64,000 nucleotides of DNA from a virus, in the IMG/VR virus record IMGVR_UViG_3300048672_000475, positions 16,857 to 80,856 of that record; one strand, given 5' to 3'. Below are positions 20,233 through 54,478 of the stretch, in pieces (positions within the stretch are counted from its first letter, which is position 1; every line of letters starts with the position of its first letter). The translations under genes and the position numbers were made by a program. The notes under the pieces were generated by a model that had not been told where the DNA came from, ran no database searches, and saw only the letters and a program-made list of their open reading frames with translations.

Positions 20233-20295
20233 CGGAGGTTTCCTCGGTATAAAAAGTTAAGTATCTAATCGGCATTTTAGGGATTAGTCAAGTAA

Positions 20296-20559
20296 TTACC
20301 ACGGCCTGTTAGCTACAAATACGCGGTATTGCCCAGCGCACCCATTTTGCGAAATTTCTCGTAGCTCACCCAGTTCCACCAGCCTATCTATACACGCTAG
20401 CATGTGCCAGCTATCGCCGGCTACGCCTCTTATAATCTCTTGCGCTCGCGCAGCCCCCGCTTCTGCTATTAAGGTTTTAGCCCTATCCCTAATAGCAAGA
20501 AACATTACTTGGCCCTGCTCGGTAAATACGATTTCTCTTTCGGTTTGGTAATCATACAT
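20296..20559 (-). CDS. conserved hypothetical protein
   Basis: RBS GGAG; GDSW..LACIDRLVELGEL. Confidence 0.65.
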   Translation of the reverse strand: MYDYQTEREIVFTEQGQVMFLAIRDRAKTLIAEAGAARAQEIIRGVAGDSWHMLACIDRLVELGELREISQNGCAGQYRVFVANRPW

Positions 20560-20618
20560 AGCAATTCTCCACTATCAATTAGCCAAGTTGGCTGCCAAAA
20601 TAATCCTGCATCGGCATT

Positions 20619-23600
20619 TTAGGGATTAGTCAACAATATCTTGCGGTGCTTGTACAACGCAATTTTCCAGTCTGCGTTCGGCAGCGAACGTGAAATATTC
20701 TCTGTCCTCCCGTCTTCCGAATCTTCTCTCCAGGCTGCTCTGCCGCATGTCGGCTTCTTCTCGTAGGCATACCACATACCATCCTCATCCTGCGCCACCC
20801 AGTTGGTCCACTCAGGTAAATCGGATGGGTCGAAAGGCGCTGTGTGCGGGAAATACCGGGGGAACCGAGGGCCGTTAGAAGACTCGGTAACGTCCGATAG
20901 CGCTTGCGGGGTGCTCACCTCGTTTAGCCCTTGTAGCAAGAGAGTTATTTCGCCCTGCATGCCTTCTACGATGTCGCGAAGGCCTTGGTTCTCGGCCTGT
21001 ATGCGCTCCAGCTTTTTGGCTTTATATTGGAGATCCGCAATCGCTGTTGTTGCATCCGCCATCCCCCTATCGAATCGCGAACCGTCGAACATAGGGTCCA
21101 GGTCGTCCATATCGTACCCATACTTGAGTATTTGCGTTGCCGCGTAGCCATAGCCGTTGTCGTATTCTTCTTTCGCGGCCTCATCCGCTTTGCTTTCCAG
21201 CCATTTTTCGATTCGTTTAAACATGTTCTATTCTCCAGTTTTAGGTATCGGCTCTTGACAGACAGGGCAATCGATAAACGCTACCCAGTCATCACCGTAC
21301 AGCATAGCTTTCGTTTCATCTATGGAAGCTCCATCATCGACCCAGATATTTTTGGGGAAAATAAGCTTATCCTTATTAAGTACCGTTCCGCAGTTATCAC
21401 AGCTAATTAAATTCATGTCGTTCTCCAGTTTGTTCTTGTCTACCCGCCTATATGAGTCGTGGGTTCACCGTTCGGATTTCTCGGCACGCTTCCAACCCAC
21501 TCCGCACCGTCGTAGCAAACCGGAAAATACACGTAGTTTCGGGTCCACGCGGTAAACGGCCTACCTTCTTCGCTCCCATACCCACAATTAAATTCTTCTT
21601 CCAATTCATCCGCGTTAAGGGTTATGGATTCTACGTCCCCAAAAGTTTCGCCTCGTTCATCCAGTGCTTTGGTAATCGCTTTTGTCCAGTTAGTCATCAT
21701 GATCTATTCTCCAGTTTGTTCTTGGTTATGGGTTACGGCGCGGTGAAACTTAGAACCGCCCGCCTGTGTAGAAGTGCGTCTTCCTTAGTGAGATGGATAA
21801 AGCCCATCGAGAGATATTTGTTGATGTGGTACCCTGGGTCCCACCCCGTACGGGCGAAGAAGCTTATTACGTCCGACTCATTAGGCCCGTTAAAATTGGG
21901 AGCCCAATAGCATTCGCAGCGCGTAGGGTCTACTTGTCGAACCGGTTCAGGCACCTCAAAGTCGTTTATCAGAATTGTTTTTGGCTTTACCTGCAACGCA
22001 TCAAAGGCTGGGACGCCGTTAGATTCAGTCCAGATAGACCCTTCATAGTTACTGTTTCTATATTCAATTCTACCGTCTTTTAGCCTATATTCGTTCATGC
22101 TTCCGTTAGTGGTTGTTAGCGTTTCTCCAGCTAACAAGGCCTCAAACATTTCGGTATAGTCTCTCATTTCTATTCTCCAGTTTGTATTCAGTAGGCACTA
22201 TATCGTGTCATATGCTGTAGTGTCAACCTAAAATAAGCCCGACCTCACAATGGCTTCTATCTGATCTAGCTGTAACGTCGGCATCACCAATCTTCGGCTG
22301 GGCCGACGCCAAAAATATTTGAGTTCCAGGGATCGTAAATCGCTACCGGACATCTTAATAGCGTAATCTTTTACGCCTCTAACGCGAATTACATTTCCGC
22401 TTTTCATGTATATTTCCAGTTTCATAGTCCTACCTATACGTGTTGGCCAGCCATTCTATATTGGCAGGCTTTAATTTTTTGGGTGCCTTATGCGCCAAAG
22501 TTCCTTTCTGCCTCCTACAATCGCACGCTACGCAGCAGGGTTTACCAGAAGGTGGCGTGTTCGGGCTTAGCAATTCGCCGCGCTTGTGCTGATTGCAATA
22601 GTAGCAATAGAAGTAGTGGTCGCTCATAGCGGCAACGACATTAGACTTGCCACGATAATGATGGCCCATACCTGCCAAGTGTCGGGGCCGAACCCCATCT
22701 GCGCCAAGATAGCTCCGATGACTGCAGATGATAAAATGTTGAGCATTAGCTTAAGCCTTTTCATTTTCAATTCTCCAGTTAATGGTTCCGGCTATCCGGA
22801 CCTCGGCGAATAAATCCGAGGGCGTCTATTTGATCTTGGTCTTCGCCGGTACAAAATTCTTCGTACTGATCGCCGAACCAATACCAATACCAACGGCTTA
22901 AACGCTCTTTCAACCGCTTAATCATTTTCAATTCTCCAGTTATATGTTCGCCAGATGGTCGGGTTACTCAGGTTTGAACCGCGCGTTGTAAACGCGGGTT
23001 GCGTTCTCGTATTCCGCGTCAAACTCGCTCTGCGCTTGCTTGGTAACGATATAGTTCTGCAACTGTGCCTCTGTCATGCGCTTGAACTGGTTGGTTTCAA
23101 AGATGTAATCCTCGTATCCGTCCCGGTACTGCGCGGCGAACTCTGGGGGAGATGGCGGGTTATACCGGGCGCCGGCTTTAGAGTCGGAATACCCATCATA
23201 GTAAAAACTGTTTTGTTGGTCCTGGTTCATCATTGTAGTACCTCGGTTGTAGGGTGGTGTGGGGTAGTAGGATGCGGCATATGAAATGCTATGACATCCA
23301 TAATGTCTACCACTATATTTTTTACGACTATCGGATCTAAGTCCAGTGTCTCCAGTACTTTCTCGATGTCGTTTCTTAACTTTACGTTTACGGGCATTTT
23401 CTCTTCTCCAGTTTTAAATTAGCAGTCGCAATCCATGGTCGGGTTAGCCTAGTCCTTCCAGTGGGTCTAGCAAGGCGGATTGAATTTTCAAGGTTTACCC
23501 CCGTATGCCGCATCCACCGCTTGCATTAGCATAGCGACAAACTCATCCACTTCTAATTTGAAATTATTAATTTCTATCACGTACGGCGGCAGATTTTCTT

Positions 23601-23742
23601 GCGGGATGCCTCGATACCGCTCTATATACCCTTTGGTAACCGAGTTCGGCGGAGTTATACCCTTATTCATCTGGTCTATAGTATGTAATCGCATTGCCAC
23701 GATGCGTGTAAACTTCTCTGCTAATAGTCTTCTTGGTGACAT
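20619..23742 (-). CDS. run of small hypothetical early genes (20619-21224, 21228-21416, 21440-21700, 21733-22167, 22228-22425, 22430-22678, 22964-23233, 23488-23742 and shorter ORFs)
   Basis: Most starts preceded by AACTGGAGAA; internal promoter TTGACA-18-TATAGT at ~22197-22226. Confidence 0.65.
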
Positions 23743-23770
23743 GATTTACTCCCCTGTTTCGAGGGTCGGG

Positions 23771-24607
23771 TTAGTCTAGCCCTTCCAGTGGGTCGGCGGT
23801 TTCTTTTTTACCAAACGCCATGGTCGTTTGGAACGTCGACTGCTTGGCCTCTTCCTGGGTCAACTCGCCCTCGTTAATGAAGTACGAGTGGACCAAATTG
23901 GAAATGATCCGGGCGCCGATGGTATTGTTTTCGTAGTTTTCGACGATGTACTTGCCGATTACCGTGGTGCAGTCCTTCTTTTTGACCGCAGGAAATAACT
24001 TCAAGTAGTCATGCAACAGCGCGCTATCGTTCAGGATTTTAAGCAGTTCGTCAATGGTCAGCTTGCGCAAATTGAACACTAACCCTACTCGGCCCAAGAA
24101 TTCCGTCTTAACACCGAAGTCGCGTAACCGGTCCAGGGTGATCGACTGTTCACCGTTGAATGCGCCGGCAAATACGAACAATACATTGTCGACCGAGGCG
24201 TTAACATATTTGCCATAGTCGCCATACACCGAGGCTATGTTCGACTCTAACACTTTCAGAAATTCGTTCTGCACACCGTTGGTTGTTTCATGGGCTAATT
24301 GGCTATTGCTGTTGCCTGATATAAAGAGCTTGTCAAACTCGTCGACAAAGCATACGGTCATCCGGTTACCGCAAGTGATGAGTGGCGTTAACGCTTTGCT
24401 CAAGCTGTTGCCGCTGGTCCCTTCTTTGGTCAACTGCGCGGCGTTAACTTCCAGGTAGTTCAGATTCGCTTGGGCTGTGAGCTGCTGGATAGTGTAGCTC
24501 TTGCCCGCACCGCTGGCGCCAACGACGATAAAATGGGGTCGTATTTTGGCCTTGCTCGTTTTGAAAATGTTGATAACTCGTTGGATCTTTTCGATTTCGG
24601 TTTGCAT
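23771..24607 (-). CDS. ClpX/HslU-like AAA+ ATPase (short form)
   Basis: GASGAGKS, FVDEFDKL, GVQNEFLK, LFVFAGAF, EFLGRV, GAR. Confidence 0.82.
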   Translation of the reverse strand: MQTEIEKIQRVINIFKTSKAKIRPHFIVVGASGAGKSYTIQQLTAQANLNYLEVNAAQLTKEGTSGNSLSKALTPLITCGNRMTVCFVDEFDKLFISGNSNSQLAHETTNGVQNEFLKVLESNIASVYGDYGKYVNASVDNVLFVFAGAFNGEQSITLDRLRDFGVKTEFLGRVGLVFNLRKLTIDELLKILNDSALLHDYLKLFPAVKKKDCTTVIGKYIVENYENNTIGARIISNLVHSYFINEGELTQEEAKQSTFQTTMAFGKKETADPLEGLD

Positions 24608-24884
24608 GTTTTGTTCTCCAGTTTTAAAGGTTCGCCCAGGTGGTCGGGTTAAGCTATCCGCTCAATGCGCAATAGCAATTGCGTTTTGTTAGCCGTTTCT
24701 ACGGCCAGCACTATCCGGCAACTAAACTGCATGCCGGCCATTTTCTTGCCATACCGACAGTGGCAGGTTACGCGGCTGGCGCATCGCTTGGCAACGGATT
24801 CGTTAATCACTTCTTTGTATACCGCCTCGCCGGGTTGTAAGGCCGCTGCGAGGGTTAGAATGTTTTTGGTGTCGGTAATCATGG

Positions 24885-25332
24885 CTACTGTTCCCTGAAT
24901 GTCATCGGAAATACTACAATGCTGCCTTTCTTTACGGCTTGCATTGCAATACGGCCTTCCTGGTTGCGCCACATCGTTTCGCCTTTGTGGGTCAGTTTGA
25001 CGTACAGCCATTGTCCGCCACAGTCTTTTTGTAATTGTTTGATTACGCTCATTTCGGTTTGCATGTTTTGTTCTCCAGTTTTGAGCCTTTTAAAGCATCT
25101 CTGTTTCAATTTCTGTGTACATTTTTGATATTTCCACTTTTATGACGCGGAAGCCTGTAAAACTTCGCCATTCTTCGGCTTCTTTTTTAGCGTATTTAAT
25201 GTCTATATAGGGATTACCGTATCTTACGGAGCCGTCCAGTCCTATAACATCTACTCTGTACAGAGTAGTTTCGTCGACCGCAAAAACACCGGCTTTTACC
25301 TTGTACTTAATGAGTTTGATTACACCGCTCAT
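24885..25332 (-). CDS. two small hypothetical genes (24885-25064, 25090-25332)
   Basis: AACTGGAG RBS before each. Confidence 0.6.
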
Positions 25333-25335
25333 GAT

Positions 25336-25837
25336 CTATTCTCCAGTTTTGTTTATTGTTTCGGTGGTCGGGTTAGGTGGTAGCGGTATCCAGCCTTTTA
25401 TGCTGTCGGTTACGGTCCAGTTTTCTGCGCAGTCTGTGTGCCAAGCCATTTTGCCCGTCTCGATATCTTTTGTCGCATACGCCACAAACCATTGGTCGTC
25501 ATCCCACGCTAGTACGGGGGTGGAAGCCTCAGCGTCTAAATAATAGTCCTGGTCTTCACTGAGCGGCGGCATTACGTCGGGTTTATTTAGGGTAGTCATA
25601 TCGTGCCTCAATGGCTGGGTTAGGTGGTAGCGGTATCCAGCCTTTTATGCTGTCGGTTACTATCCACTTCTCCGAGCAGTTGGTATACCAATTCATTTTG
25701 ACGGTTCCACAATCCCGCATGCAAAAAGCGACGTACCATTCCCCTCCCCAGGCTAATACCGGTACTGAGACTTCAGTACCAAACGCGTCTTGGTATTCGA
25801 TAGGCGGCATTACATCGGGTTTATTTAGGGTAGTCAT
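25336..25837 (-). CDS. tandem paralogous pair, DUF551-like (25336-25599, 25583-25837)
   Basis: Both MTTLNKPDVMPP...PVLAW...VTDSIKGWIPLPPNP. Confidence 0.7.
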
Positions 25838-35268: not shown

Positions 35269-35299
35269 TTACCCCGCAACACAAAACTGGAGAACACTT

Positions 35300-36784: not shown

Positions 36785-36790
36785 TTACAG

Positions 36791-36820
36791 TTGACACACC
36801 CAACAACATCAAACTACACT
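36791..36820 (+). promoter_or_regulatory. sigma70 promoter upstream of the candidate sRNA and lysis genes
   Basis: TTGACA-18-TACACT. Confidence 0.6.
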
Positions 36821-36826
36821 ATAGAT

Positions 36827-36975
36827 ACCCGCTAGCGTCTGGTCATGGACATAGTGGATAGCTCCGGCTAGGTTTCCTCCAGTTACCTACGCCGTGAGCG
36901 CCTTTATTACCCTCCGTAAGTCCCCAAGTCCACTCATCCGCACCTCCACCACCCAAGTCCACTCATTCCAGCCGC
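36827..36975 (+). ncRNA. candidate anti-RBS small RNA / structured leader
   Basis: 13-bp hairpin 36861-36899 with loop TTCCTCCAGTT; further CCTCC motifs; no credible ORF. Confidence 0.5.
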
Positions 36976-37139
36976 ATACTATTATAGGGGCGCCGATTTG
37001 CGCGCCTGATTATTATCACGCTTCCCATCCAAAATCTTTTGTGGTATACAGGACGCATATACCAAGTAGGTTACTCGTATATCAATTTTTGGCATCAAGA
37101 CGCGCCCGCTTGTGGAGTTAAATCAATTTAGGAGCAGGT

Positions 37140-37388
37140 ATGGAGCGTATTGACATTAGGGCACCGGATGACTATATGGAGTTCGGTCGGGAAACCAGCG
37201 AGAGCACGAAAATGATCAACCGATTGGTGCTTGAGAAAGACCGCCTGATCCTGGAGATCCGTGTTGCGGGCATATTGAACCGCAGATTGCGGGACAAGAT
37301 GGCCTTGTACCGGTCGTATAGCATGATAAGTTCTACGCTGTTGTTCTGTATGGCAGCGTTATTTTGGCTGCAGTACACGCATAGGTGA
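37140..37388 (+). CDS. hypothetical protein with C-terminal TM segment
   Basis: AGGAG RBS. Confidence 0.6.
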   Translation: MERIDIRAPDDYMEFGRETSESTKMINRLVLEKDRLILEIRVAGILNRRLRDKMALYRSYSMISSTLLFCMAALFWLQYTHR

Positions 37389-37392
37389 TGAT

Positions 37393-43575: not shown

Positions 43576-43603
43576 GAATGCCGGAAACATATCCGGCATT
43601 TTT
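43576..43603 (+). terminator. intrinsic terminator
   Basis: AATGCCGGA-AACATA-TCCGGCATT-TTT. Confidence 0.7.
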
Positions 43604-44899: not shown

Positions 44900-44991
44900 A
44901 TAAATCCGGAGGACGCGCGACAAGGGCTTAGTACGGATGCGGGACCGAACTTCCCGAAAGCTAAAAACGAAACACAAAACTGGAGAACAAA

Positions 44992-46833
44992 ATGATAAAC
45001 GTAAAAGAGTACAGTACTCCGGTACTGATAACGACCCTTCGCGCCTATAACGAGGCATACCGTAGCGGGACGCCTTTGGTACCCGATCACGCCTACGATG
45101 CCTTGGTGGAAGAACTTCGATTCCGCATGCCGAGTCACCCATTCCTGCAAGAACCCGAGCCCGAACCGGAAAACGTATTCGGCAAGACGGCACCCCTCCC
45201 AGAGCGTATGCTATCCACCCAAAAAGCGTATACAACCGAAGAGGTGCAAAAATGGTGTGCGGAAGTAGACCGCGTTTCTAAAATGATAGGCGTAGCGCCG
45301 CTCGTCAAAGTGATGCCTAAGTTAGATGGGTATGCAGCGTACTACGACGGCGAAAAGATGTATACGCGGGGCGACGGGCGGAACGGTACTGACATATCGC
45401 ACGTATTAGAGTGCATGACCTTTGATATGACCGTCAAAGGTAAAGGCGAAATCGTCGTAGATTCAGATTTCTTTAAAGAGTACCTAGCAGACGAATTTGA
45501 GAATACACGCAATGTTATCGCGGCGGCGTTGAAAGAAGGCGAAAAATCCGACGCTGTATTGGCGGGGCTACAATCAGGCCATATTCGATTTGAAGCGTTC
45601 AGCAATTTGAGTGTTTCGCCTACTATTAAAGCAACGGACGCGCCGGCTATAATCGACACGCTGTGGACAGACATAATTACTAACTGCCCGTACGACACGG
45701 ACGGCCTAGTATTTGAGGCGCTGGATGATGCTGTCAAAGACGAGATGGGCGCTACCAATCATCATCACCGTTGGCAGATGGCGTACAAACGCAATACCGA
45801 GTTCTATGATGTTCGGGTAACGGGATTAACATGGCAAACAGCCAAGTCGGGCCGTATTACGCCAGTTGTCGAGCTGGAACCTACGCGCATCTCCGGCGTA
45901 ACGGTGAGTCGCGCTACGGGACACCATGCGGGTAATGTGATTAACCAAGGTATCGACGACGGTGCTATCGTCCGGGTATGCCGAAGCGGTCAGGTTATCC
46001 CCTATATCTCAGAAGTGGTAGCCGAGGCACCTTTCGGATTGGTAGCGCACCCCGGAGAATGCCCATCGTGCGGAGCCCCAACGCATTTGGACGGCGATAA
46101 CTTGATGTGTACCAACGTCGCGGATTGCCCCGCACAGGTAGCGGGTAAAATTGAGCATTTTTTCAAAACGATTGGTAATTGTGACGGCTTCGGACCGGTT
46201 GTGTGTGAACAACTGGTTAAGTACGGAATAACTAGGGTATCTGAAGTGTACGGAATGTCTTCTCGGGAGTTTGGTACCGCCGGGTTCGGAGAGAAAACAG
46301 CGTTTAATTTATACAATGAGCTGCTTAATAGCACGCAACGGGAGATAGAGGACTGGCGATTCTTAGCCGCATTCGGGATTCCTAACTTTGGGCCCGCGAG
46401 TTGTGAAAAATTACTTCAAAAATACCCGATAGCTCTGCTGGATGAGCTGGAGCCAGACGACTTAACTACCGTAGAAGGCATAGGGGAGCTAACGGCTAAT
46501 TCTTTTTACCAGCAGTTCCAGAATTTAGATTATGACGGCGAATTTTGGGAGTTGCTAGATATGTTTAGGCTAAAACATACGCCAGTTTGCGGCCACAGGA
46601 CAGGAAGCCTAGCTGGAAAAACGATTTGCTTTACCGGCACGATGACTCAAGGTAGCCGCAAGGATATGGAAGCGTCGGCAAAAGCAAACGGCGCGACGGT
46701 GACTTCTAGCGTGAGTAGCAAGACGGATTATCTAGTCTGCGGCGAAAATGTAGGTGCGAACAAAACGGCTGCGGCGGCTAAGAATGGCGTTACGGTGTTG
46801 ACGGAGGACGAGTATTTGGGGATGATCGGGTAA
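44992..46833 (+). CDS. ligA: NAD+-dependent DNA ligase
   Basis: YNEAY..G, KLDG, TRGDG, DGLV, OB fold, C4 zinc finger, HhH, C-terminal BRCT. Confidence 0.93.
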   Translation: MINVKEYSTPVLITTLRAYNEAYRSGTPLVPDHAYDALVEELRFRMPSHPFLQEPEPEPENVFGKTAPLPERMLSTQKAYTTEEVQKWCAEVDRVSKMIGVAPLVKVMPKLDGYAAYYDGEKMYTRGDGRNGTDISHVLECMTFDMTVKGKGEIVVDSDFFKEYLADEFENTRNVIAAALKEGEKSDAVLAGLQSGHIRFEAFSNLSVSPTIKATDAPAIIDTLWTDIITNCPYDTDGLVFEALDDAVKDEMGATNHHHRWQMAYKRNTEFYDVRVTGLTWQTAKSGRITPVVELEPTRISGVTVSRATGHHAGNVINQGIDDGAIVRVCRSGQVIPYISEVVAEAPFGLVAHPGECPSCGAPTHLDGDNLMCTNVADCPAQVAGKIEHFFKTIGNCDGFGPVVCEQLVKYGITRVSEVYGMSSREFGTAGFGEKTAFNLYNELLNSTQREIEDWRFLAAFGIPNFGPASCEKLLQKYPIALLDELEPDDLTTVEGIGELTANSFYQQFQNLDYDGEFWELLDMFRLKHTPVCGHRTGSLAGKTICFTGTMTQGSRKDMEASAKANGATVTSSVSSKTDYLVCGENVGANKTAAAAKNGVTVLTEDEYLGMIG

Positions 46834-46834
46834 C

Positions 46835-46863
46835 TTGACAACAGATCTGCCTCCAATTATCAT
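46835..46863 (+). promoter_or_regulatory. sigma70 promoter for the endonuclease gene
   Basis: TTGACA-17-TATCAT. Confidence 0.65.
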
Positions 46864-46892
46864 ATATCGGAAATCTGATAACTGGAGGCAGT

Positions 46893-48431
46893 ATGAAAAG
46901 AGCGGTAACCGAAAAAACGGAGGCCCTTAAAGAAAAGTTACGTGGCGAGGGGAGAGTGATTTTCCTTAACCGAATGCAAGAGATGTACGGCGACAAGCTA
47001 GATCTTAGCTTGGTTCAATACGTGAATTCGCAGACCAAAGTAAAGGTACGATGTGTAGAGCACGACCATGTTTTTGAGGGTAAACCAAACAATTTAGGCA
47101 TGGGTAAGACAGGATGCCCTACTTGCACCACGGCTAAAAAGAAAGCGGCTAATCCGAATACGCTGTCTCAAGAAACTTTTCTTGCTAAGTGCAGAGAAGT
47201 ACACGGCGACAAATATGATTACTCAAAAACCGTATACGAATCCGCGCACAAAGAAGTCACAATAATCTGCCCGGAGCATGGCGAATTCACGCAGCTAGCT
47301 AGATCACACCACAAAGGGCAGGGGTGTAGGCGGTGCGCTCGCATAGCTATTACGAATAAGCAGTTGGGTAATTTAGAAGACTTTATCGCAATAGCAACAG
47401 AAGTTCATAAAGGCAAATACGACTATAGGCTAGCGGAGTACGCGGGAAATTTAACCGCTGTAAAAATACTCTGCAAGGACCACGGTATATTTGAGCAGAA
47501 TCCAAAAGACCATAAGCAAGGGAACGGATGTCCAAAATGCGGAGTTACAGGACCGTCTAAAGCTGAGGCCGAAATAGCGGAATATGTGAAGTCTTTAGTA
47601 GAAGGTGTACGGACCAGCGATAGGTCGGCCATAGCCCCGAATGAACTGGATATTTATGTACCGGATAAAAATTTGGCTATCGAATTCAATGGTGTTTACT
47701 ACCACTCCGAAAAATTCATATCCAAAGATTATCACCTAGAAAAACTAAAGAAATGCAATTCAGCAGGCATAGACCTGATACAAATATTTGAGGATGAGTG
47801 GGAGGATTTAGGAAAACGCGAAATCGTAAAATCCATGATTTCATCCAGATTAGGAGCTAACGGTACTCGTATTTATGCGAGAAATACCGCTTTAGAGGTA
47901 GTCCAGACTAAAGAAGCGCGGACGTTTCTTGACGCTAACCATATACAAGGATTTGCGGCCACAGGAACCTACTATGGCCTACGAACAAAAGACGGCGAAT
48001 TGGTATCCGTAATGGCGTTTTCTCCCCCAAGGCGGTCTATAACGCGGGCGAAAACGGAGTACGAGTTAGAGTTGGTTCGGTACGCACCCAAACTATTTAC
48101 CACTGTTGTAGGAGGGTTCTCCAAGTTACTTAGCCCGGTAAAAGGTAAGCGGATAGTGACGTATTGCGATAGGCGGCTATTTAACGGAAACGGATACAAA
48201 GCGGTAGGTTTCAGAGTGGTTAGGGAAAATCCACCTGAGTATTACTACCTACACCGAAAAACTCGAAATTTCAGGCATTCACGATTAGGGTTCCAACGAA
48301 AACACCTAGAGAAAAAACTTGAGAATTTTGATCCGGCCAAAACTGAACATCAAAACATGCTAGATCACGGATACCGCAGGATTTACGGATGCGGTACTAT
48401 AACGCTCGTACTGGACAAAGGTAATACATGA
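46893..48431 (+). CDS. Hef-like homing endonuclease with three zinc-ribbon repeats
   Basis: C..H..F......G.GC..C x3; ELDIY...AIEFNG.YYHS; IYARN...NHIQG...GGFSKL. Confidence 0.75.
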   Translation: MKRAVTEKTEALKEKLRGEGRVIFLNRMQEMYGDKLDLSLVQYVNSQTKVKVRCVEHDHVFEGKPNNLGMGKTGCPTCTTAKKKAANPNTLSQETFLAKCREVHGDKYDYSKTVYESAHKEVTIICPEHGEFTQLARSHHKGQGCRRCARIAITNKQLGNLEDFIAIATEVHKGKYDYRLAEYAGNLTAVKILCKDHGIFEQNPKDHKQGNGCPKCGVTGPSKAEAEIAEYVKSLVEGVRTSDRSAIAPNELDIYVPDKNLAIEFNGVYYHSEKFISKDYHLEKLKKCNSAGIDLIQIFEDEWEDLGKREIVKSMISSRLGANGTRIYARNTALEVVQTKEARTFLDANHIQGFAATGTYYGLRTKDGELVSVMAFSPPRRSITRAKTEYELELVRYAPKLFTTVVGGFSKLLSPVKGKRIVTYCDRRLFNGNGYKAVGFRVVRENPPEYYYLHRKTRNFRHSRLGFQRKHLEKKLENFDPAKTEHQNMLDHGYRRIYGCGTITLVLDKGNT

Positions 48432-50050
48432 CACAACAAAAAATCCACGCTAAAAAACCAAAATTAGCGTTCCCTCCGAAGAAAACTGATTTGGTAACGT
48501 TTGAGTTTACGGAAGAAGAACTTATCGCGGGGTTAGCCGACCCGCGATGGAGGCTATCGAATCTGTACACGATCTATAATAAAAAGAACCGGCCAATTAT
48601 ATTCAGGCCGAACGCAATCCAGAATACCATTCTCACAGATATGTGGTTTCGGAACGCCATTCTCAAAGCGAGGCAGGGCGGGGTGTCTACGTTTGTGCAG
48701 ATTTTTATGCTGGATACTTGCCTATTTTCAGAACAGCAGCGGGGTAAGGTAATCTGCTCTGATCTTAATCTAGCTGAAGGTATTTTACGTGACGTATTTA
48801 AACGCGCGTACGATAACTTACCAGCACCGTTCAAAATTGCGTTACCTACGTCTGGCGAACCCTCAAAGAGTAAAATTGAATTTACCAACGGCTCTATCGT
48901 AGAAGTAACTACCAGCGCCAGGGGGCAGACGCCTTCAATCGTACACATCAGCGAATATGGTAAGATCGCGGCCAAAGACCCTCAAAAGGCAAGAGAAATT
49001 CAAACGGGTACGCTAACTGCGGCGGCGGCGGACGCTCTAGTATTCGTGGAATCTACTGCAGAGGGAAATTCAGGCGCTTTTTACGATTTGGTGCAGACTG
49101 CGGTTAAGTTACAAGAATCAGGAAAACCCTTATGGAAGTTAGACTTTAAGTTGTTTTTCTTTCCTTGGTACATAGACCCCTCCTACGTAGCTCCGGCGGA
49201 TTGTGTAACTATATCACCAAAAGACCATGAGTATTTCGACACCGTAGAGCAACGATGTAAAACCAAAATATCGCCAGAGCAACGCGCATGGTACGTCAAA
49301 CTCAGAGAGATGAACTACGCAGGCGATAGGGAAATGATGGCCCAGGAGATGCCGAGTTTCTGGCAAGAGCCTTTCCAACAATCTTTGGAAGGTGCGTACT
49401 TCACCGAGCAGTTCACGCGAATCCGAAAAGAAAACAGAATAACGGAAGTGCCCTACGACCCGCATTATCCGGTTAACCTTTTCTTCGACCTCGGTGCGAA
49501 TGACGAAACCTCCATTTGGTTTATCCAGGCCAAGAGAGGACAGTTCGCGGTTATCGACTTCTTTGAAGACAACGGCGAACCTTTATCCTATTTCGTAAAC
49601 GAAATCGATTCCCGAGGGTATACATTAGGCTTCGTCTACCTACCGCACGACGCCAACCACCGAAAGCAGGGCCAAGACAGAAACTTAACACCCGAAGAAA
49701 TGCTACAAGAATTGTGCCCTCATTGGCGATTTCAATTAGTGCCCAGAACGCCGGATAAATTGACCGCGATCATGCAGGCTAGAAACTTCTTACCACTTTG
49801 CGTGTTTGATGAGGCTAAGTGCAAAGAAGGTCTGGCCCATCTGCAAAGCTACCGCAAAATGTGGGACCCAAGAAGAGGTATGTGGAAATCTACGCCTAAC
49901 CACGATATACACTCGAACGCGGCGGACGCCTTCCTACAAGCGGGACAGGCGAAAGCGATGAACATGTTCGGCTACGGGAATGCGGGCACTGCTATGCAGA
50001 ACACCTCGTTTGACGCCAGTTTCGTACCTGAACCCGATCTAGGATATTAA
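48428..50050 (+). CDS. terminase large subunit
   Basis: ILKARQGGVST, HISE, ESTAEG, FDLG..D, HD, SNAADAF. Confidence 0.92.
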   Translation: MTQQKIHAKKPKLAFPPKKTDLVTFEFTEEELIAGLADPRWRLSNLYTIYNKKNRPIIFRPNAIQNTILTDMWFRNAILKARQGGVSTFVQIFMLDTCLFSEQQRGKVICSDLNLAEGILRDVFKRAYDNLPAPFKIALPTSGEPSKSKIEFTNGSIVEVTTSARGQTPSIVHISEYGKIAAKDPQKAREIQTGTLTAAAADALVFVESTAEGNSGAFYDLVQTAVKLQESGKPLWKLDFKLFFFPWYIDPSYVAPADCVTISPKDHEYFDTVEQRCKTKISPEQRAWYVKLREMNYAGDREMMAQEMPSFWQEPFQQSLEGAYFTEQFTRIRKENRITEVPYDPHYPVNLFFDLGANDETSIWFIQAKRGQFAVIDFFEDNGEPLSYFVNEIDSRGYTLGFVYLPHDANHRKQGQDRNLTPEEMLQELCPHWRFQLVPRTPDKLTAIMQARNFLPLCVFDEAKCKEGLAHLQSYRKMWDPRRGMWKSTPNHDIHSNAADAFLQAGQAKAMNMFGYGNAGTAMQNTSFDASFVPEPDLGY

Positions 50051-50063
50051 CTGGAGAACTAAA

Positions 50064-50939
50064 ATGAAAGAACGAATTGGCGTTGCTATAACATTTACCA
50101 ACGAATGCTCAATCTGGGACGGAATAGCGGTAGCGATTCACGACCCGGTTTATGAAGACACTACGTACGAATTCTATAACGGGATTGGTACGGTAGACGT
50201 AGTTAAAAAATACCTAAAAGACGGACTTGAGATACGGAGCATATCGCTGTTCGTGCCAAAATTTATGACGGGTATGGAGGTAGATTATCTTACCGATGCG
50301 CTATCGGACGAGGGTATTACCGGGATACCGGTATTCTACTCTTATCCAGGTAGGCAACCATTCGCCAACGCGATCATACCTCCGAACCACTAGACGAATA
50401 CCACCAATCCATGCTATACAGCTATGGCGTGGCGCTATACAGAAACATCATAACTGGAGATGAAAAATGAAGATATCGATTCAATTAGAAGATACCGATA
50501 AAATAGAAGCCGGAGTATCCTGGGTATCCAGAGACGGCTTTACGACTAAATGGATGTCGACGGATGACGTCGGCGAAAAACTGCAAACCTTGCTACGTGG
50601 CAATAATGTGGTCCTTAGCCTTATACCAACGGAGACCAAACGCCACTGGTGGCGTAGGGTATTTAACAGGTAGCTTACTTTTAGGTGCATAGAATGGCAC
50701 GATTAGAAATAGATCCCGATGTGGTAGTGACCGGAGTAGAGGTAGACTACATGGAGCTGTATCAGCGCGCGGGCGGAAACCCGGACGAACCTTATGTCGT
50801 CTACGAGTTTGCAAATGGGCGTAAGCAGTTCTGGTCGAACTTCCAAAGCGACGGCATATACGACAAGCCTTTCAGCATAGTAGGCGGCGAAATAGTCCAC
50901 TTACCGGACCCCGATGTAAGCAATAATACTAACCCATAA
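50064..50939 (+). CDS. three small hypothetical genes (50064-50393, 50467-50673, ~50694-50939)
   Basis: AACTGGAG RBS before the first two. Confidence 0.6.
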
Positions 50940-51055
50940 CTGGAGCAGAATTTGATAGACTAGGATCACCTAGCGGATAGGGATTGCAACCCGAAAACTC
51001 CTTCAGTAAGAGTTCCGCTAGTATTTATACTGAGAATCATACTGGGGATTGCACG

Positions 51056-51640
51056 ATGAATAAAGTACTAATGACGGTAAAAGAGCTACCAACACAGCGG
51101 TATTTGGTAGAGTGTTTTGATTACGAAGCAGATACAGGGAGACTGTATTGGCGCGATAGACCGATACACCATTTTAAAAAAGAATACGCAGCTAGAGCCA
51201 TGAACAAAAAGTATGCAGGGAAAGAGATAGCTCTGTTTATAAATAAAGGCCATGCGTACGTCGGCGTGGGCAATAAAACTTACGCGGTTCACAGGATAAT
51301 TTGGAAACTGGTCTACGGTACGGACCCCGGAGAATACATAGACCACGTAAACGGAGATAGGTCCGATAATAGGATCGCCAATTTGAGGGAAGCCACTAAC
51401 GCACAGAATCAGATGAATCAAAGGGGTCGGACTCAAGTTAGCAATACCGGAGTAGTAGGAGTTAACTACCATAAGAGGGATAGGTCGTATAGGGCGTACA
51501 TGAGAATAAATAACAAAAGCAAGCACCTAGGTAACTATAAAAATATAGAAGACGCCATTCGTGCTAGGTTAGAAGCCGAAAAATCTTACCAAGGTGAATA
51601 CTCACCAAAAATACATAGGGGCGAATATGCGCAAAGCTAA
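51056..51640 (+). CDS. HNH homing endonuclease with AP2-like domain
   Basis: HRIIW, IDHVNGDRSDNRIANLR, GVVGV...HLG.Y...EDA..AR. Confidence 0.9.
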   Translation: MNKVLMTVKELPTQRYLVECFDYEADTGRLYWRDRPIHHFKKEYAARAMNKKYAGKEIALFINKGHAYVGVGNKTYAVHRIIWKLVYGTDPGEYIDHVNGDRSDNRIANLREATNAQNQMNQRGRTQVSNTGVVGVNYHKRDRSYRAYMRINNKSKHLGNYKNIEDAIRARLEAEKSYQGEYSPKIHRGEYAQS

Positions 51641-52070
51641 TACCATGATAGACCCGGTAACGGAAGATAATATGCCGGTAGAGTGGGGTCCGGAAAAATG
51701 CGTAATCGCTAAAGATGCGATGAAAACGCTACAAAAACACTACCCAAAATGGCTCTGGGGTATAGAATTCAATGACGACCCCGCAACCGGTGGTTTGGAT
51801 TCAATGGTTATCCGAATCCTCGACGTACCGACGGAAACGGCGTACTACATTCGCGCCCAAGATATTGACCGCGACCGCATGCACTGCGTCCTGATAGGAG
51901 GCGGCATGCTGTTGGAGGCACTCGGATTATCCCGTACACGCAACCGGCAGGACGAGGTGCATGGACTTAGACGAACGCCCGCAGGTCTTATAGTACCTGA
52001 CCCTAACGCTGTCATCGAAACCAATCCGGGGTACAGCAAAATCAAAACCCAAGCAGCACTGTTGAGATAA
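51627..52070 (+). CDS. conserved hypothetical protein upstream of portal
   Basis: L.KHYP.WLW, GG.LLE..GLSR. Confidence 0.65.
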   Translation: MRKANTMIDPVTEDNMPVEWGPEKCVIAKDAMKTLQKHYPKWLWGIEFNDDPATGGLDSMVIRILDVPTETAYYIRAQDIDRDRMHCVLIGGGMLLEALGLSRTRNRQDEVHGLRRTPAGLIVPDPNAVIETNPGYSKIKTQAALLR

Positions 52071-52074
52071 TAGT

Positions 52075-54450
52075 ATGGCATTGACATCACCGATGGACCC
52101 ACAACCATCCCTTGAGGCTGGTAACTACAAACCGTCTAGCGCGGTAGCAGCGCCGATTGTAAATGCGGTAGATTCCGTCGGTATGTCAGAGCCAGCCGCT
52201 AAGAAGCCATCAGCCACTGGAATTGGTGGACGATACGTAGATTGGCTGCAGATGGCACGAAACGCCTACGAATCCAGCGAGTCATGGCTTCAGGTCAATC
52301 AACGGGCTATATGGGCACGCAATTTTGCGCATTACCGATCTGAACACGCGCCAGACTCCCCGGTACTGTCCGACGCGAACAAACATAGGCCAAAATATTT
52401 TTGGCCAAAAACGCGAACCTTGGTGCGGGATATCCAAGCATCATCGGCGGCTGCGTATTTCGCCAGTTCGGATGTCGTAGCCATTGAAGCGGAAGATTCG
52501 GATGACAAGGAGCAGGTAGAAGCTGCGACCCTGATGAAAGAGTTGGTAAATTACCGACTTGACCAAACGATCCCATGGTACCAATTAGTATTGGGTGGCA
52601 TCCAAGAAACTTCTGTACTCGGTTCCGTCGTATCCCATCAAGGGTGGGAATACGTAGAACGCGGTGGAAAAACCGTTATGGACGCGCCCAAAGTACGCGT
52701 CGTACCGATGGAGAATGTCCGTATTTCGCCCGCTGCCGATTGGATCGATCCCGCAAACTCGTCTCCCTATTTCATTGAGCTTATGCCGATGTACTTGGGC
52801 GACGTGCTAACCCGTATCGAAGAAGGCGAGAACCCTAGAAGCGGGGAGCCCGCTTGGCGTAATCTAGGTGAGGGCCAGCTACTGTCAGCGGGTAACCGCG
52901 ACAATCTGGATACTACTCGCAGAGCAAGGGCCGGGTCGCGCCGACTGGACCCTAAATCAAACATGATGGAGTCCGAAAACGCTTTTCGGATTATCTGGGT
53001 ACACCGCAATATCATTCGGCATGACGGGGAAGATTGGTTGTACTACACAGCAGGCGCTAACGTAATGCTTTCAGAACCGGTACGGTTGGCGAGTGTAATC
53101 CCCTGGGCGGATAACAAACGCGATTACGTTATCGGCAAAATGGAAATTGAAACCGATAGGCCTTACCCCAGCGGCCCGGTAGAACTGACCTCGGGCATGC
53201 AGCGCGCGTATAACGAGTTAAAGAACCAAAAATATGAAAATGTAAGGCAGGTATTAAACCGCAGATACCTATACCGAGCCGGGAGCCAAGTTGACGTTCG
53301 AGCACTGAGCCGCAACGTACCGGGCGGGTTGATCGGTATTAGCGCACCCGGCCCGTTGAGTAACCATGTAGAACCTCTGAATACGCCTGACGTAACCTCG
53401 TCTTCGTACCAAGAGGAAGACAGGCTTTCGCTGGCCATGGACGATCTGTCGGGGTCGACAACGGGCGCTACGGTTAACTCCAACCGCAAACTGAACGAAA
53501 CGGCTACGGGCATGAACCTGATGTCCGAGGCGGCAAATAAAATTCGGGAGATGGAGCTGCGCACGTTTACAGAAACGTGGATAGAACCGGTACTTCGCCA
53601 AATAGTCCAGCTCGAAGCGATGTACGAGACTGACGAAACAGCTCTACTTGTCGCGGCTAAGAAAGCCAAGCTACGCAAAGTTCTGCTGAGCTATTTTGAC
53701 CATAAGTTTTCGGTATCGGTCAATGTTGGTATGGGCGCAGTCAGCCCAACGCAACGTATGCAGAAAGTCCAAACCGCAATATCCACAGTCGTACAGTTGA
53801 TACCACGCGCAGCCGCCGCCGTGGACGAAGAAGAAGTCACTAAGGAAATCTTCGGCGCTGCGGGCTTCGACAACGGCGCGAGATTCTTCAATTTCGAGAA
53901 AGCGCGCCAAGAAGAGCAAGCGGCGAAAGAACAAGGCGACCCGATGCAGCAAGTCCAAATGCAGCAGTTGCAGTTGAAGAGCCAAATCGCACAGCAAGAT
54001 TTCCAAATCGCGCAAGGTAAACTTCAGCTCGAAAACCAAAAACTCGCCATGGAAGCCGAAAAGCAAGCAGCAATGCTGCAAGAGCTATCGGCAAAAATCG
54101 ACTATTTGGTGTCCAGAACTGCGCACGAAAAAACCAAATTAGCTACGCAAAACGTAACCTCGATATTCCAGGCTACGCAAGCTGCGGGTACTATTGCGCA
54201 GAACCCAGGCATCGCGCCGGCTACCGATACGATTCTTAAATCAGCAGGCTTTATCGATTACAATGAGGCGCCTATCGTGGAAGAGGTAAGCCCTCCCCTG
54301 GAGCAGCCTATGGTAGAACCCGCAGTAGAAAATACACACCCTCAATTTCCGGCCAATCCCCCCTCACCGGGTACAGGGAAAGCAGGTATTTTGAAGGGTA
54401 TCGAGACACCTGAAATTGATATCAGAATGGAACGGGATAGAAGCCAATGA
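52075..54450 (+). CDS. portal protein (podovirus-type)
   Basis: 791 aa between terL and scaffold; PKTR, LNETATGM, Gln-rich C-terminal barrel. Confidence 0.85.
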   Translation: MALTSPMDPQPSLEAGNYKPSSAVAAPIVNAVDSVGMSEPAAKKPSATGIGGRYVDWLQMARNAYESSESWLQVNQRAIWARNFAHYRSEHAPDSPVLSDANKHRPKYFWPKTRTLVRDIQASSAAAYFASSDVVAIEAEDSDDKEQVEAATLMKELVNYRLDQTIPWYQLVLGGIQETSVLGSVVSHQGWEYVERGGKTVMDAPKVRVVPMENVRISPAADWIDPANSSPYFIELMPMYLGDVLTRIEEGENPRSGEPAWRNLGEGQLLSAGNRDNLDTTRRARAGSRRLDPKSNMMESENAFRIIWVHRNIIRHDGEDWLYYTAGANVMLSEPVRLASVIPWADNKRDYVIGKMEIETDRPYPSGPVELTSGMQRAYNELKNQKYENVRQVLNRRYLYRAGSQVDVRALSRNVPGGLIGISAPGPLSNHVEPLNTPDVTSSSYQEEDRLSLAMDDLSGSTTGATVNSNRKLNETATGMNLMSEAANKIREMELRTFTETWIEPVLRQIVQLEAMYETDETALLVAAKKAKLRKVLLSYFDHKFSVSVNVGMGAVSPTQRMQKVQTAISTVVQLIPRAAAAVDEEEVTKEIFGAAGFDNGARFFNFEKARQEEQAAKEQGDPMQQVQMQQLQLKSQIAQQDFQIAQGKLQLENQKLAMEAEKQAAMLQELSAKIDYLVSRTAHEKTKLATQNVTSIFQATQAAGTIAQNPGIAPATDTILKSAGFIDYNEAPIVEEVSPPLEQPMVEPAVENTHPQFPANPPSPGTGKAGILKGIETPEIDIRMERDRSQ

Positions 54451-54478
54451 TGGGCCCAATAACTAAACTGGAGACAAA

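What the first reader, a model, noticed from the sequence alone, without database searches (positions are those of the whole stretch)
36827..36975. Candidate phage sRNA whose loop is antisense to a genome-wide shared RBS (AACTGGAG): a possible global translational switch
Seen: just downstream of a TTGACA-18-TACACT promoter, in a gap with no credible ORF, lies the hairpin GCTC-CGGC-TAGGT[TTCCTCCAGTT]ACCTA-c-GCCG-t-GAGC (36861-36899). The 11-nt loop is the reverse complement of AACTGGAGGAA. The exact 8-mer AACTGGAG precedes the start codons of about 24 genes (912, 3514, 9612, 12271, 15423, 17402, 19711, 21233, 21423, 21709, 22175, 22773, 22934, 23406, 24616, 25073, 25341, 30993, 35285, 44978, 46880, 50049, 50452, 54466). 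These are mostly early, replication and accessory genes, while capsid, tail, fibre and lysis genes use ordinary AGGAG/GAGG sites. The same RNA has a second mini-hairpin TTAC[CCTCC]GTAA (36907-36919) and CACCTCC (36941-36947). On the minus strand the motif has no start codon at RBS distance, so it is not itself an RBS. Known: C-rich anti-SD loops are how bacterial sRNAs such as RNAIII, RsaE and cuckoo RNAs block initiation. Inference: a phage RNA made at the head of the lysis/late transcript silences one regulon addressed by an extended RBS barcode. I do not know of a described system like this.
Basis: partly seen in the sequence, partly recalled or inferred. Interest (0 to 1): 0.85.

Follow-up and report, generated by a model that had tools for sequence, protein, structure and literature searches.

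The report
Conserved phage RNA with anti-RBS loop
An uncultured freshwater phage and four relatives carry a small, promoter-driven two-hairpin RNA whose never-changing loop is the exact mirror of the unusual ribosome-binding tag used by about 29 of the phage's genes, so it probably pairs with those messages, though no transcript or effect has been observed.

Summary
AACTGGAG is the commonest 8-mer of this 80.9-kb IMG/VR phage: 33 copies in the genome and 27 in the window, against 1.1 expected. Twenty-nine copies lie 5-9 nt before an ATG.

The hairpin at 36861-36899 is stable (-20.9 kcal/mol, z -3.5). It belongs to a 78-80-nt two-hairpin element that starts about 7 nt after a sigma-70-type promoter. 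I found the element in four other uncultured-phage contigs. The promoter, the lower stem with a bulged U, and the loop 8-mer CUCCAGUU are invariant. The upper stem differs in all five copies yet still pairs. It matches no Rfam family and does not resemble HK022 put RNA.

Composition-preserving shuffles of the loop match the start regions as well in only 1 of 3000 trials, or 11 of 3000 with the CUCC core fixed.

The "late global switch" reading is only partly supported:
- The promoter is of the same class as the early-gene promoters.
- Two complete distant relatives use AACTGGAG sites without a detectable hairpin.
- A second stereotyped ribosome-binding site (RBS) family has no antisense partner.
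- No RNA data exist.

A cis-acting leader, acting like put or nut antitermination elements, is a serious rival. The scan has noted similar anti-RBS hairpins in other phage genomes.

The parts
36791..36820 (+). Promoter P1: TTGACA, 18-nt spacer, TACACT (sigma-70 type, TTGACAC class)
   Evidence: 10 of 12 matches to consensus. The -35 box, the 18-nt spacing and the 6-nt distance to ACCCGC are kept in G003, G004 and L052. It is the same -35 class as at least 8 other promoters of the genome.
36827..36906 (+). Conserved two-hairpin RNA element (model R1, 78 positions); the inferred transcript start is at or near 36827
   Evidence: Alignment A1 of 5 copies. RNAalifold structure with 19 pairs, 6 of them showing changes on both sides. 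96.6% of cells are paired and 0 of 500 shuffles reach that. Single copy in the genome.
36829..36857 (+). Hairpin 1 (CCGCTA / TAGTGG stem, variable loop)
   Evidence: The stem has 6 pairs. Two pairs are changed on both sides compared with CCGCAG/CTGCGG in the relatives, and one is a G-U pair.
36861..36899 (+). Hairpin 2: invariant lower stem GCTC-CGGC / GCCG-T-GAGC with bulged T36895, and a hypervariable upper stem TAGGT/ACCTA
   Evidence: Folds at -20.9 kcal/mol, z = -3.5. The upper stem reads TAGGT/ACCTA, GCAG/TTGC, AATAA/TTATT and ACGG/CCGT in four copies and is different again in G003.
36874..36884 (+). Loop TTCCTCCAGTT; positions 36877-36884 (CTCCAGTT) are the reverse complement of AACTGGAG
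   Evidence: The 8-mer is invariant in all 5 copies. The only loop change is C to A at 36876 in L051. Unpaired probability is >=0.99 at 7 of 8 positions. The 8-bp duplex is -10.5 kcal/mol.
36900..36985 (+). C-rich, G-poor tract (a possible Rho-loading site) that includes the mini-hairpin 36907-36919 and CACCTCC 36941-36947
   Evidence: 48% C and 9% G over the 75 nt after hairpin 2. This is not seen in the relatives (24-29% C).
36988..37017 (+). Weak intrinsic-terminator-like hairpin GGGCGCC..GCGCGCCT followed by GATTATTATC
   Evidence: -13.5 kcal/mol. At a comparable position, directly after hairpin 2, G003 has a canonical terminator AAGCCCTCT-tattc-AGAGGGCTTTTT.
37039..37052 (+). Conserved box TTGTGGTATACAGG (extended -10 like, candidate promoter P2 for the downstream genes)
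   Evidence: Present in G003 and L051 at the same relative place. Unique in the window.
37140..37388 (+). First gene downstream (82 aa, C-terminal membrane helix). Spanins at 37625-38113 and 37851-38045 and the endolysin at 38786-39223 follow.
   Evidence: PF00959, 1.7e-37. Synteny with G003 and G004.
35285..35292 (+). AACTGGAG RBS of the 70-aa gene 35300-35512, displayed in a hairpin loop. This is the nearest candidate target on the same strand.
   Evidence: The same loop display is seen in G003 (47876) and G004 (27338).
19711..25348 (-). Densest cluster of AACTGGAG ribosome-binding sites (19711, 21233, 21423, 21709, 22175, 22773, 22934, 23406, 24616, 25073, 25341). Further sites lie at 912, 3514, 9612, 12271, 15423(+), 17402 and 30993.
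44978..54473 (+). AACTGGAG ribosome-binding sites inside the packaging/late region: 44978 (NAD-ligase), 46880 (512-aa DUF723 protein), 50049, 50452 and 54466

Best explanation
The stretch encodes a small non-coding RNA of a new family. It is about 80 nt at its core, perhaps 110-190 nt with its 3' end. Host sigma-70 RNA polymerase transcribes it from P1.

Its 5' hairpin probably stabilises the RNA (inferred). Its second hairpin holds out an 11-nt loop. The core of that loop, CUCCAGUU, base-pairs with AACUGGAG, the Shine-Dalgarno-containing tag of about 29 phage messages. Pairing over the Shine-Dalgarno sequence would hinder 30S binding, so the RNA most likely damps translation of the tagged genes in trans.

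What is shown: the element, its promoter, its fold, the invariance of the loop, and the exact complementarity. What is inferred: that the RNA is made, that it pairs, that the effect is repression, and how many of the tagged genes respond.

A brake or buffer made alongside its targets fits better than a late switch.
For: - AACTGGAG is the top 8-mer of the genome, and 29 of its 33 copies are ribosome-binding sites.
- The loop 8-mer is invariant in five copies whose upper stem has changed at nearly every position while staying paired.
- The one loop substitution (L051) falls just outside the 8 complementary nucleotides. It breaks the generic CCUCC but not CUCCAGUU.
- The real loop has a perfect 8-nt complement in 32 of 128 candidate start regions. 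Shuffled loops give a mean of 0.42, and only 1 of 3000 reaches 32. With CTCC kept fixed, 11 of 3000 do.
- The loop is predicted single-stranded, and the 8-bp duplex is -10.5 kcal/mol.
- The promoter is conserved with fixed spacing to the first hairpin. G-U pairs fit only the plus strand.
- In G003 a canonical terminator follows the element directly, giving a discrete RNA of about 110 nt. In three copies a separate conserved promoter-like box then follows.
- Genomes with the element carry 3-6 times more AACTGGAG per kb than relatives without it.
- The 5' AACU of the tag cannot pair with the U-rich 16S tails listed in the part of PMC10783764 that I read (groups 1-3).
Against: - No RNA data exist for this phage.
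- Loop and tag are unchanged in all copies, so covariation between them could not be tested.
- The complete distant relatives G006 and G010 use AACTGGAG sites with no detectable element.
- A second stereotyped RBS family has no antisense partner.
- The loop carries C or A, never U, opposite the consensus A after GGAG, so it is not optimised beyond 8 bp.
- One RNA would have to titrate about 29 messages made from promoters of the same class.
- In G004 and L052 the element is a 5' UTR with no terminator.
- The invariant lower stem, the junction and the bulged U suggest recognition by a protein or by RNA polymerase. Pairing alone does not explain this.
Confidence: 0.38

Rival explanations
1. The element is a cis-acting leader RNA that controls transcription elongation. 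It would work like HK022 put RNA, which binds RNA polymerase directly, or like a nut/boxB site, which is bound by a phage antiterminator. On this reading it decides whether P1 transcripts pass the terminator or Rho site that follows and reach the lysis genes. The invariant loop and lower stem would be the binding surface, and the match to the RBS tag would be coincidence.
For: - Like putL, the element is about 75 nt, has two stem-loops, begins immediately after its promoter, and has an unpaired U low on the 3' side of stem II (put features from PMC9378689; element).
- It is followed by a canonical terminator in G003, and in the window by a weak terminator plus a 48% C / 9% G tract.
- A strong terminator lies further down the operon at 43576-43601.
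- Its position upstream of the spanin/endolysin block is syntenic in three genomes.
- The junction and lower stem are invariant in sequence, as expected for a protein or polymerase contact.
- In G004 and L052 it is plainly a leader.
Against: - There is no sequence or model similarity to putL (2.6 bits) or to any Rfam family.
- No Q- or N-like protein was recognised among the neighbours.
- A constitutive early-class promoter plus a constitutive antiterminator in front of lysis genes would be odd.
- A conserved second promoter-like box after the terminator suggests the downstream genes do not depend on P1.
- It must write off the loop-RBS match as a chance of 0.03-0.4%.
Confidence: 0.27
2. The element is a c4-like local antisense RNA. 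Whole or processed from the leader, it would pair with one or a few particular ribosome-binding sites near it. Candidates are the outer-membrane spanin gene inside the same operon, or the 70-aa gene 35300-35512 upstream. It would time their translation and hence lysis. The other tagged genes would be bystanders.
For: - The o-spanin RBS is an exact AACTGGAG in G003 (40648) and G004 (21788).
- In the window it reads AGTTGGAG, which could keep 8 contiguous pairs through two G-U wobbles (sequence; pairing is my reading, whereas RNAduplex gave -7.5 kcal/mol with an interrupted helix).
- The element is always upstream of the lysis block.
- The RBS of the 70-aa gene sits in a hairpin loop in all three genomes, which would allow loop-loop kissing.
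- This lineage does use local anti-RBS pairing, as shown by the hairpin 46847-46891 and its G003 counterpart.
Against: - The o-spanin RBS lies inside the i-spanin reading frame, where it encodes Leu-Glu. Its conservation may therefore be a protein-level constraint (codons are my reading).
- The targets are 1-3 kb away.
- There is no match to the Rfam C4 family.
- Nothing singles these targets out from the other 28.
Confidence: 0.12
3. The hairpins have a structural or housekeeping role only, such as a 5' stabiliser, a processing site or a pause signal. On this reading nothing reads the loop sequence as an antisense, and the complementarity is chance or a relic of an inverted RBS cassette.
For: - By count alone the antisense copy is not surprising. 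About 4 of the 33 copies are not ribosome-binding sites, close to the 1-2 expected by chance.
- 5' hairpins commonly stabilise bacterial RNAs (general knowledge).
Against: - A purely structural role does not explain an 8-10-nt invariant loop next to a freely changing stem.
- It does not explain the shuffle result either.
Confidence: 0.1

Closest known systems
c4 antisense RNA of phages P1/P7 (Rfam C4, RF01695) and the CI RNA of satellite P4
   Same: These are small (about 70-80 nt) phage RNAs lying in the leader of an operon. Their exposed loops are complementary to ribosome-binding regions or other sites in phage messages, and they act by base pairing. The mechanism is from my own knowledge; PMC8198154 and PMC8201110 appeared in a title search for c4 but I did not read them.
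   Different: There is no match to the C4 model. c4 has one local target in its own transcript, whereas this loop matches a tag shared by about 29 genes on both strands. Processing is unknown here.
HK022 putL/putR antiterminator RNA
   Same: It is about 70-75 nt, has two stem-loops, lies directly after an early promoter (putL), has an unpaired U low in stem II, and is followed by terminators (PMC9378689).
   Different: There is no sequence or covariance-model similarity. put has no anti-Shine-Dalgarno loop. Here the most conserved single-stranded part is the loop.
C-rich-loop anti-Shine-Dalgarno sRNAs of bacteria (S. aureus RNAIII hairpins, RsaE; cuckoo/CcsR RNAs)
   Same: They display a C-rich motif (here CCUCC) in a hairpin loop that can pair with Shine-Dalgarno sequences of many messages (my own knowledge).
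   Different: They are not homologous (no Rfam match). This one is encoded by a phage. It matches a private extension (AACU) of the site rather than the generic Shine-Dalgarno sequence. Only one of its C-rich motifs is conserved.
T4 RegB endoribonuclease with ribosomal protein S1 (and the RegA repressor)
   Same: This is a phage system that addresses a class of mostly early messages through their ribosome-binding site. The RegB/S1 site GGAGAAUAAAA (PMC1702504) resembles the 3' half of the tag here, GGAGAAyArAA.
   Different: That system is protein-based. It needs no 5' context, whereas here AACU is invariant. No RegB homologue is present in this genome (PF10715).
Lambda PR'-6S RNA-tR' late leader
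   Same: A constitutive promoter gives a short terminated RNA just upstream of the lysis genes (my own knowledge).
   Different: No Q-like gene was recognised. There is a second promoter-like box downstream, and the conserved features are RNA hairpins rather than a DNA qut site.

Membership tests
Rfam C4 antisense RNA (RF01695) | Match to the family covariance model | tested here: not met
   cmscan of the whole window at gathering scores returned only a tRNA hit. A permissive scan of 36780-37140 at E<=10 returned only a chance H19_3 hit.
Rfam C4 antisense RNA (RF01695) | Loop complementary to the RBS of a gene downstream in the same operon | tested here: inconclusive
   The o-spanin RBS is exactly complementary in G003 and G004. 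In the window it could pair through two G-U wobbles (my reading). That site is also constrained by the overlapping i-spanin frame.
Rfam C4 antisense RNA (RF01695) | Processed from the leader transcript (RNase P) | not testable with these tools
   No RNA data. No RNA run holds the sequence.
HK022 put RNA | Sequence and structure similarity to putL/putR | tested here: not met
   Model R1 run against HK022 27600-30000 with filters off scored 2.6 bits at putL and at best 6.7 bits elsewhere. The putL sequence was read.
HK022 put RNA | About 70 nt, two stem-loops, immediately downstream of the promoter | tested here: met
   78 model positions and two helices. The element starts 6-7 nt after the -10 box in all four copies that include the promoter.
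HK022 put RNA | Unpaired U in the lower 3' part of stem II | tested here: met
   GCCG-U-GAGC carries an invariant bulged U in all 5 copies. This is an analogy of form only.
HK022 put RNA | Binds the RNA polymerase beta' zinc-binding domain and suppresses downstream terminators | not testable with these tools
   This needs transcription assays.
C-rich-loop anti-SD sRNAs (RsaE, RNAIII, CcsR) | C-rich motif exposed in a hairpin loop | tested here: met
   The loop UUCCUCCAGUU is unpaired in the ensemble.
C-rich-loop anti-SD sRNAs (RsaE, RNAIII, CcsR) | Several conserved copies of the motif in one RNA | tested here: not met
   The second and third motifs (36911-36915, 36941-36947) are not conserved. 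Only L051 has a counterpart of the mini-hairpin.
C-rich-loop anti-SD sRNAs (RsaE, RNAIII, CcsR) | Homology to a described family | tested here: not met
   No Rfam match.
T4 RegB/S1-targeted ribosome-binding sites | GGAG followed by a 7-nt A-rich stretch | tested here: met
   The consensus GGAG-A-A-(C/T)-A-(G/A)-A-A from 29 sites compares with GGAGAAUAAAA (PMC1702504). C at position 7 is commoner here than in T4.
T4 RegB/S1-targeted ribosome-binding sites | A RegB nuclease gene in the phage | tested here: not met
   PF10715 gave no match in the 80.9-kb record, which is 88% complete.
Lambda-type Q/6S late leader | Q-family antiterminator gene upstream of the promoter | tested here: not met
   PHROGs and Pfam gave no hit for the six small genes at 35880-37554. 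The Atlas search for the 87-aa zinc-ribbon protein was uninformative.

The most novel reading that the evidence does not exclude
A lytic-type phage marks about 29 of its own genes with a private extension of the Shine-Dalgarno sequence (AACU-GGAG). It encodes one small RNA whose loop reads that tag, so a single RNA sets the translation of a whole gene class. This would be an RNA-addressed regulon inside a virus, not described in the literature I could search.
Probability: 0.3. Interest if true: 0.85.

Novelty: new variant of a known kind. Interest (0 to 1): 0.66.

Why it matters
If the pairing is real, phages can wire many of their own genes to one small RNA through a private ribosome-binding tag. 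That would be an RNA counterpart of T4's RegB and RegA proteins. It would also explain why some phage genomes carry oddly long, invariant ribosome-binding sites.

Whatever its function, the element is a new structured RNA family. It has clear covariation, a defined promoter and an invariant loop, so it is easy to test with reporters and compensatory mutations.

The scan's earlier notes report similar anti-RBS hairpins in several unrelated uncultured phages. Those notes are unchecked AI notes. If they hold, this would be a widespread and overlooked layer of phage gene control.

Tried and rejected
- **GenBank phages.** There was no DNA match for 36400-37500. The ORF 41117-42820 gave only 31% matches. 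It turned out to be a LamG-domain protein, not a terminase.
- **Exact 17-mer of the loop region in IMG/VR.** Four hits, all chance.
- **RBS-cassette 19-mer in IMG/VR.** One unrelated phage with only 3 motif copies.
- **Lower-stem pattern.**
  - It found only G003 and G004 in IMG/VR.
  - It found L051 and L052 plus three chance hits in metagenomes.
  - It found two chance hits in bacterial genomes.
- **Looser loop-plus-3'-stem pattern and hairpin-1 pattern.** Neither gave new members.
- **Protein baits.**
  - The 89-aa and i-spanin proteins had no word-based homologues.
  - A profile search found 136 i-spanin relatives.
  - The search for related loci with the alignment found nothing.
- **Search for the element in other relatives.** The model search was negative in G002 and G005-G010 and in the portal-flanking loci L017 (G011), L019 and L021. 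A weak hit in G005 lies in coding sequence.
- **Sequencing runs.** No RNA holder is listed; there is only the DNA run of the probable source sample, a freshwater metagenome.
- **T7-like promoter idea (CACTATAG).** Rejected. There is no repeat of the motif and no single-subunit polymerase; the 873-aa ORF is a primase.
- **Other negative searches.** There is no tRNA or tmRNA at the site and no RegB homologue. The Atlas search of the zinc-ribbon neighbour was uninformative.
- **Host.** It was not identified, so the host 16S tail could not be read.

Full report
**What the window is**

The window is bases 16857-80856 of an 80,856-bp IMG/VR viral record rated 88% complete. The only sequencing run that holds it is a freshwater metagenome, probably its source.

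It has no close relative among GenBank phages. Its gene content is as follows.
- The portal is of the SU10 type.
- Recognisable genes include a primase, a DUF2800 nuclease, an NAD-ligase, TerS, TerL, a major head protein and a lysozyme.
- Genes left of about 32 kb run mostly leftward. These are replication genes and many small genes.
- From about 34.4 kb onward all genes run rightward.

**The observation**

AACTGGAG occurs 27 times in the window against 1.1 expected. It occurs 33 times in the genome, where it is the commonest 8-mer. Twenty-nine copies sit 5-9 nt before an ATG that opens an ORF of at least 45 codons. The consensus is (A/T)AACTGGAG-AA-Y-A-R-AA.

The copy at 36877 is on the opposite strand to the local genes and has no start codon behind it. 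It fills the loop of a hairpin that folds at -20.9 kcal/mol (z = -3.5).

The loop pairs with 8 nt of the consensus site. It pairs with 9 nt of two sites, not with 11.

**What it is**

A portal search found 12 related IMG/VR loci. Two relatives, G003 and G004, have portals 80% identical to this one, and both hold the homologous stretch. In both, the hairpin region is the part of the intergenic DNA that BLAST still aligns.

A pattern built on the invariant lower stem recovered two more copies from metagenomes, L051 and L052. The five copies align over 78-80 nt. The anatomy is as follows.
- The promoter is TTGACA, an 18-nt spacer and TAnAnT. Six nucleotides later comes ACCCGC, the likely start of the RNA.
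- Hairpin 1 has stem CCGCAG/CUGCGG in the relatives and CCGCUA/UAGUGG in the window. Two pairs are changed on both sides and one is a G-U pair.
- A three-nucleotide linker AUA follows.
- Hairpin 2 has an invariant lower stem, GCUC-CGGC / GCCG-U-GAGC, with a bulged U.
- Its upper stem differs in all five copies. It reads UAGGU/ACCUA, GCAG/UUGC, AAUAA/UUAUU and ACGG/CCGU in four of them, and G003 differs again.
- Its loop is UU(C/A)CUCCAGUU.

RNAalifold predicts exactly this fold, with 6 of 19 pairs showing changes on both sides. On the named structure 96.6% of cells are paired. No shuffle out of 500 reaches that value, and every slid register falls to 26-54%.

G-U pairs in both helices would be A-C mismatches on the other strand, so the plus strand is the RNA. 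The two small ORFs in the gap are not conserved beyond the hairpin.

The element is single-copy in the genome. It matches no Rfam family.

**What follows the element**

The downstream sequence differs between copies.
- **G003:** a canonical terminator, AAGCCCUCU-uauuc-AGAGGGCUUUUU, starts 12 nt after hairpin 2. This would give an RNA of about 110 nt.
- **The window:** a 75-nt tract with 48% C and 9% G, then a weak terminator-like hairpin at 36988-37007.
- **The window, G003 and L051:** a conserved box TTGTGnTATAyAGG then follows. It looks like an extended -10 promoter and is unique in the window.
- **G004 and L052:** a conserved small ORF starts about 45 nt after hairpin 2, so the element is a 5' UTR there.

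In all three long contigs the spanin genes lie downstream, at distances of 0.8 to 3 kb.

**Is the loop-RBS match more than chance?**

By count alone it is not. About 4 of the 33 copies are not ribosome-binding sites, close to the chance expectation.

What is improbable is the location. The copy fills the one invariant loop of a conserved, promoter-proximal RNA. I tested this in three ways.
- I collected 128 candidate start regions: an ATG with an SD-like core upstream and an ORF of at least 45 codons. I then counted those holding a perfect complement of any loop 8-mer.
- The real loop hits 32. Shuffles of the loop that keep its composition hit 0.42 on average, and only 1 of 3000 reaches 32.
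- With the anti-Shine-Dalgarno core CTCC held fixed, 11 of 3000 reach 32.

The single natural substitution in the loop (L051, C to A) lies just outside the 8 complementary nucleotides. It destroys the generic CCUCC but not CUCCAGUU.

The 5' AACU of the tag cannot pair with the 16S tail. In the part of a survey of about 6,400 genomes that I read (groups 1-3), the bases 3' of CCUCC are U-rich (PMC10783764).

I therefore think a functional link between loop and tag is more likely than not.

- P1 carries the same TTGACAC -35 box as at least eight other promoters, including those of leftward early genes. The RNA is therefore probably an early product, not a late signal.
- G006 and G010 are complete genomes with portals 65-66% identical to this one. 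They use AACTGGAG as an RBS at 3 and 6 genes. They have no detectable element even with filters off. The tag is therefore older or wider than the hairpin.
- The genomes with the element have 0.22-0.41 copies of the tag per kb, against about 0.07 in G006 and G010. This is only one phylogenetic contrast.
- A second stereotyped RBS, CCGAAGAGG, has 15 copies against 0.39 expected. It has no antisense hairpin partner.
- The loop is not optimised beyond 8 bp.
- The invariant junction, lower stem and bulged U look like a contact surface for a protein or for RNA polymerase.

**Rival: a cis-acting leader**

HK022 putL is about 70 nt and has two stem-loops. It lies just downstream of its promoter and has an unpaired U low in stem II. 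It makes RNA polymerase resistant to intrinsic and Rho-dependent terminators (PMC9378689).

The element here shares that form and is followed by terminators. However, the covariance model scores putL at only 2.6 bits. It is therefore at most an analogue.

No Q- or N-like protein was recognised nearby. A constitutive antiterminator on an early-class promoter in front of lysis genes would be odd. The conserved promoter-like box after the terminator suggests the downstream genes have their own start.

**Rival: a c4-like local antisense RNA**

The o-spanin RBS is AACTGGAG in G003 and G004. In the window it is AGTTGGAG, which could keep 8 pairs through two G-U wobbles by my reading. That site also encodes Leu-Glu of the overlapping i-spanin.

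The RBS of the 70-aa gene 35300-35512 is displayed in a hairpin loop in all three genomes. This would allow loop-loop kissing.

The lineage does use local anti-RBS pairing. At 46847-46891 an upstream CTGCCTCCA arm sequesters the AACTGGAGGCAG site of the next gene, and G003 has the same design with an exact CTCCAGTT arm.

**A further lead**

The 3' half of the tag, GGAGAAyArAA, resembles the T4 RegB/S1 target GGAGAAUAAAA (PMC1702504). No RegB homologue is present. The A-rich tail may simply favour S1 binding and translation.

**Verdict**

The element is a real, new, conserved RNA. I put the probabilities as follows.
- About 0.38 that it acts as a multi-target anti-RBS RNA.
- About 0.12 that it is a local c4-like antisense RNA.
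- About 0.27 that it is a cis-acting elongation-control leader whose loop match is chance.
- About 0.10 that it has a merely structural role.
- The rest is unknown.

Antisense and anti-Shine-Dalgarno RNAs are known, so I class this as a new variant of a known kind. The literature searches I ran turned up no multi-target phage RNA that reads a private RBS tag.

Earlier notes of this scan report similar hairpins in other uncultured phages, some with claimed loop-tag covariation. I did not check those, and they are not evidence here.

**Limits**

- No RNA data exist for this phage.
- The host is unknown.
- There are only five copies of the element.

Noticed in passing
window 46847-46891 (+); G003:C1:33880-33915: A local hairpin in which an upstream CTGCCTCCA arm pairs with the AACTGGAGGCAG RBS of the 512-aa gene 46893-48431. 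The 5' arm lies inside the spacer of promoter 46835-46863, so only read-through transcripts would carry the sequestering arm. G003 has the same design with an exact CTCCAGTT arm.
   Followed up: partly
window 35279-35302 (+); G003 near 47876; G004 near 27338: The AACTGGAG RBS of the 70-aa gene 35300-35512 sits in a hairpin loop whose stem contains the start codon. This holds in all three genomes although the stem sequences differ.
   Followed up: partly
window 5545-32210, mostly minus strand: A second stereotyped RBS, CCGAAGAGG, has 15 copies against 0.39 expected. Thirteen are on the minus strand, before small genes of the 26-32 kb array. It has no antisense hairpin partner.
   Followed up: partly
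window 37039-37052 (+): The box TTGTGGTATACAGG (extended -10 like) is conserved at the same relative place in G003 and L051 and is unique in the window. It is a candidate promoter of the lysis-gene block.
   Followed up: partly
window 34411, 35240, 36791, 46835 (+); 28521, 26522, 22226, 5605 (-): A promoter class with an extended -35 box TTGACAC and a TAnnnT -10. Several members sit about 20 nt before an AACTGGAG or CCGAAGAGG RBS.
   Followed up: no
window 9628-9744 (-): An Rfam tRNA hit (48.4 bits, 117 nt, full model length) that ARAGORN does not call. An AACTGGAG RBS follows it directly at 9612-9619.
   Followed up: no
window 41117-42820 (+): A 567-aa ORF with a LamG/concanavalin-like domain (PF13385). 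Its homologues share only partial coverage, so it is probably a fibre or receptor-binding protein and not a terminase.
   Followed up: no
window 43941-50050 (+): TerS (43941-44657) and TerL (48428-50050) are separated by an NAD-dependent ligase and a 512-aa DUF723/zinc-finger protein. Both of these carry the AACTGGAG tag.
   Followed up: no
window 43576-43601 (+): A strong intrinsic terminator (GAATGCCGGAAACATATCCGGCATTTTTGTG). It would end a transcription unit that starts at P1 or at the box at 37039.
   Followed up: no
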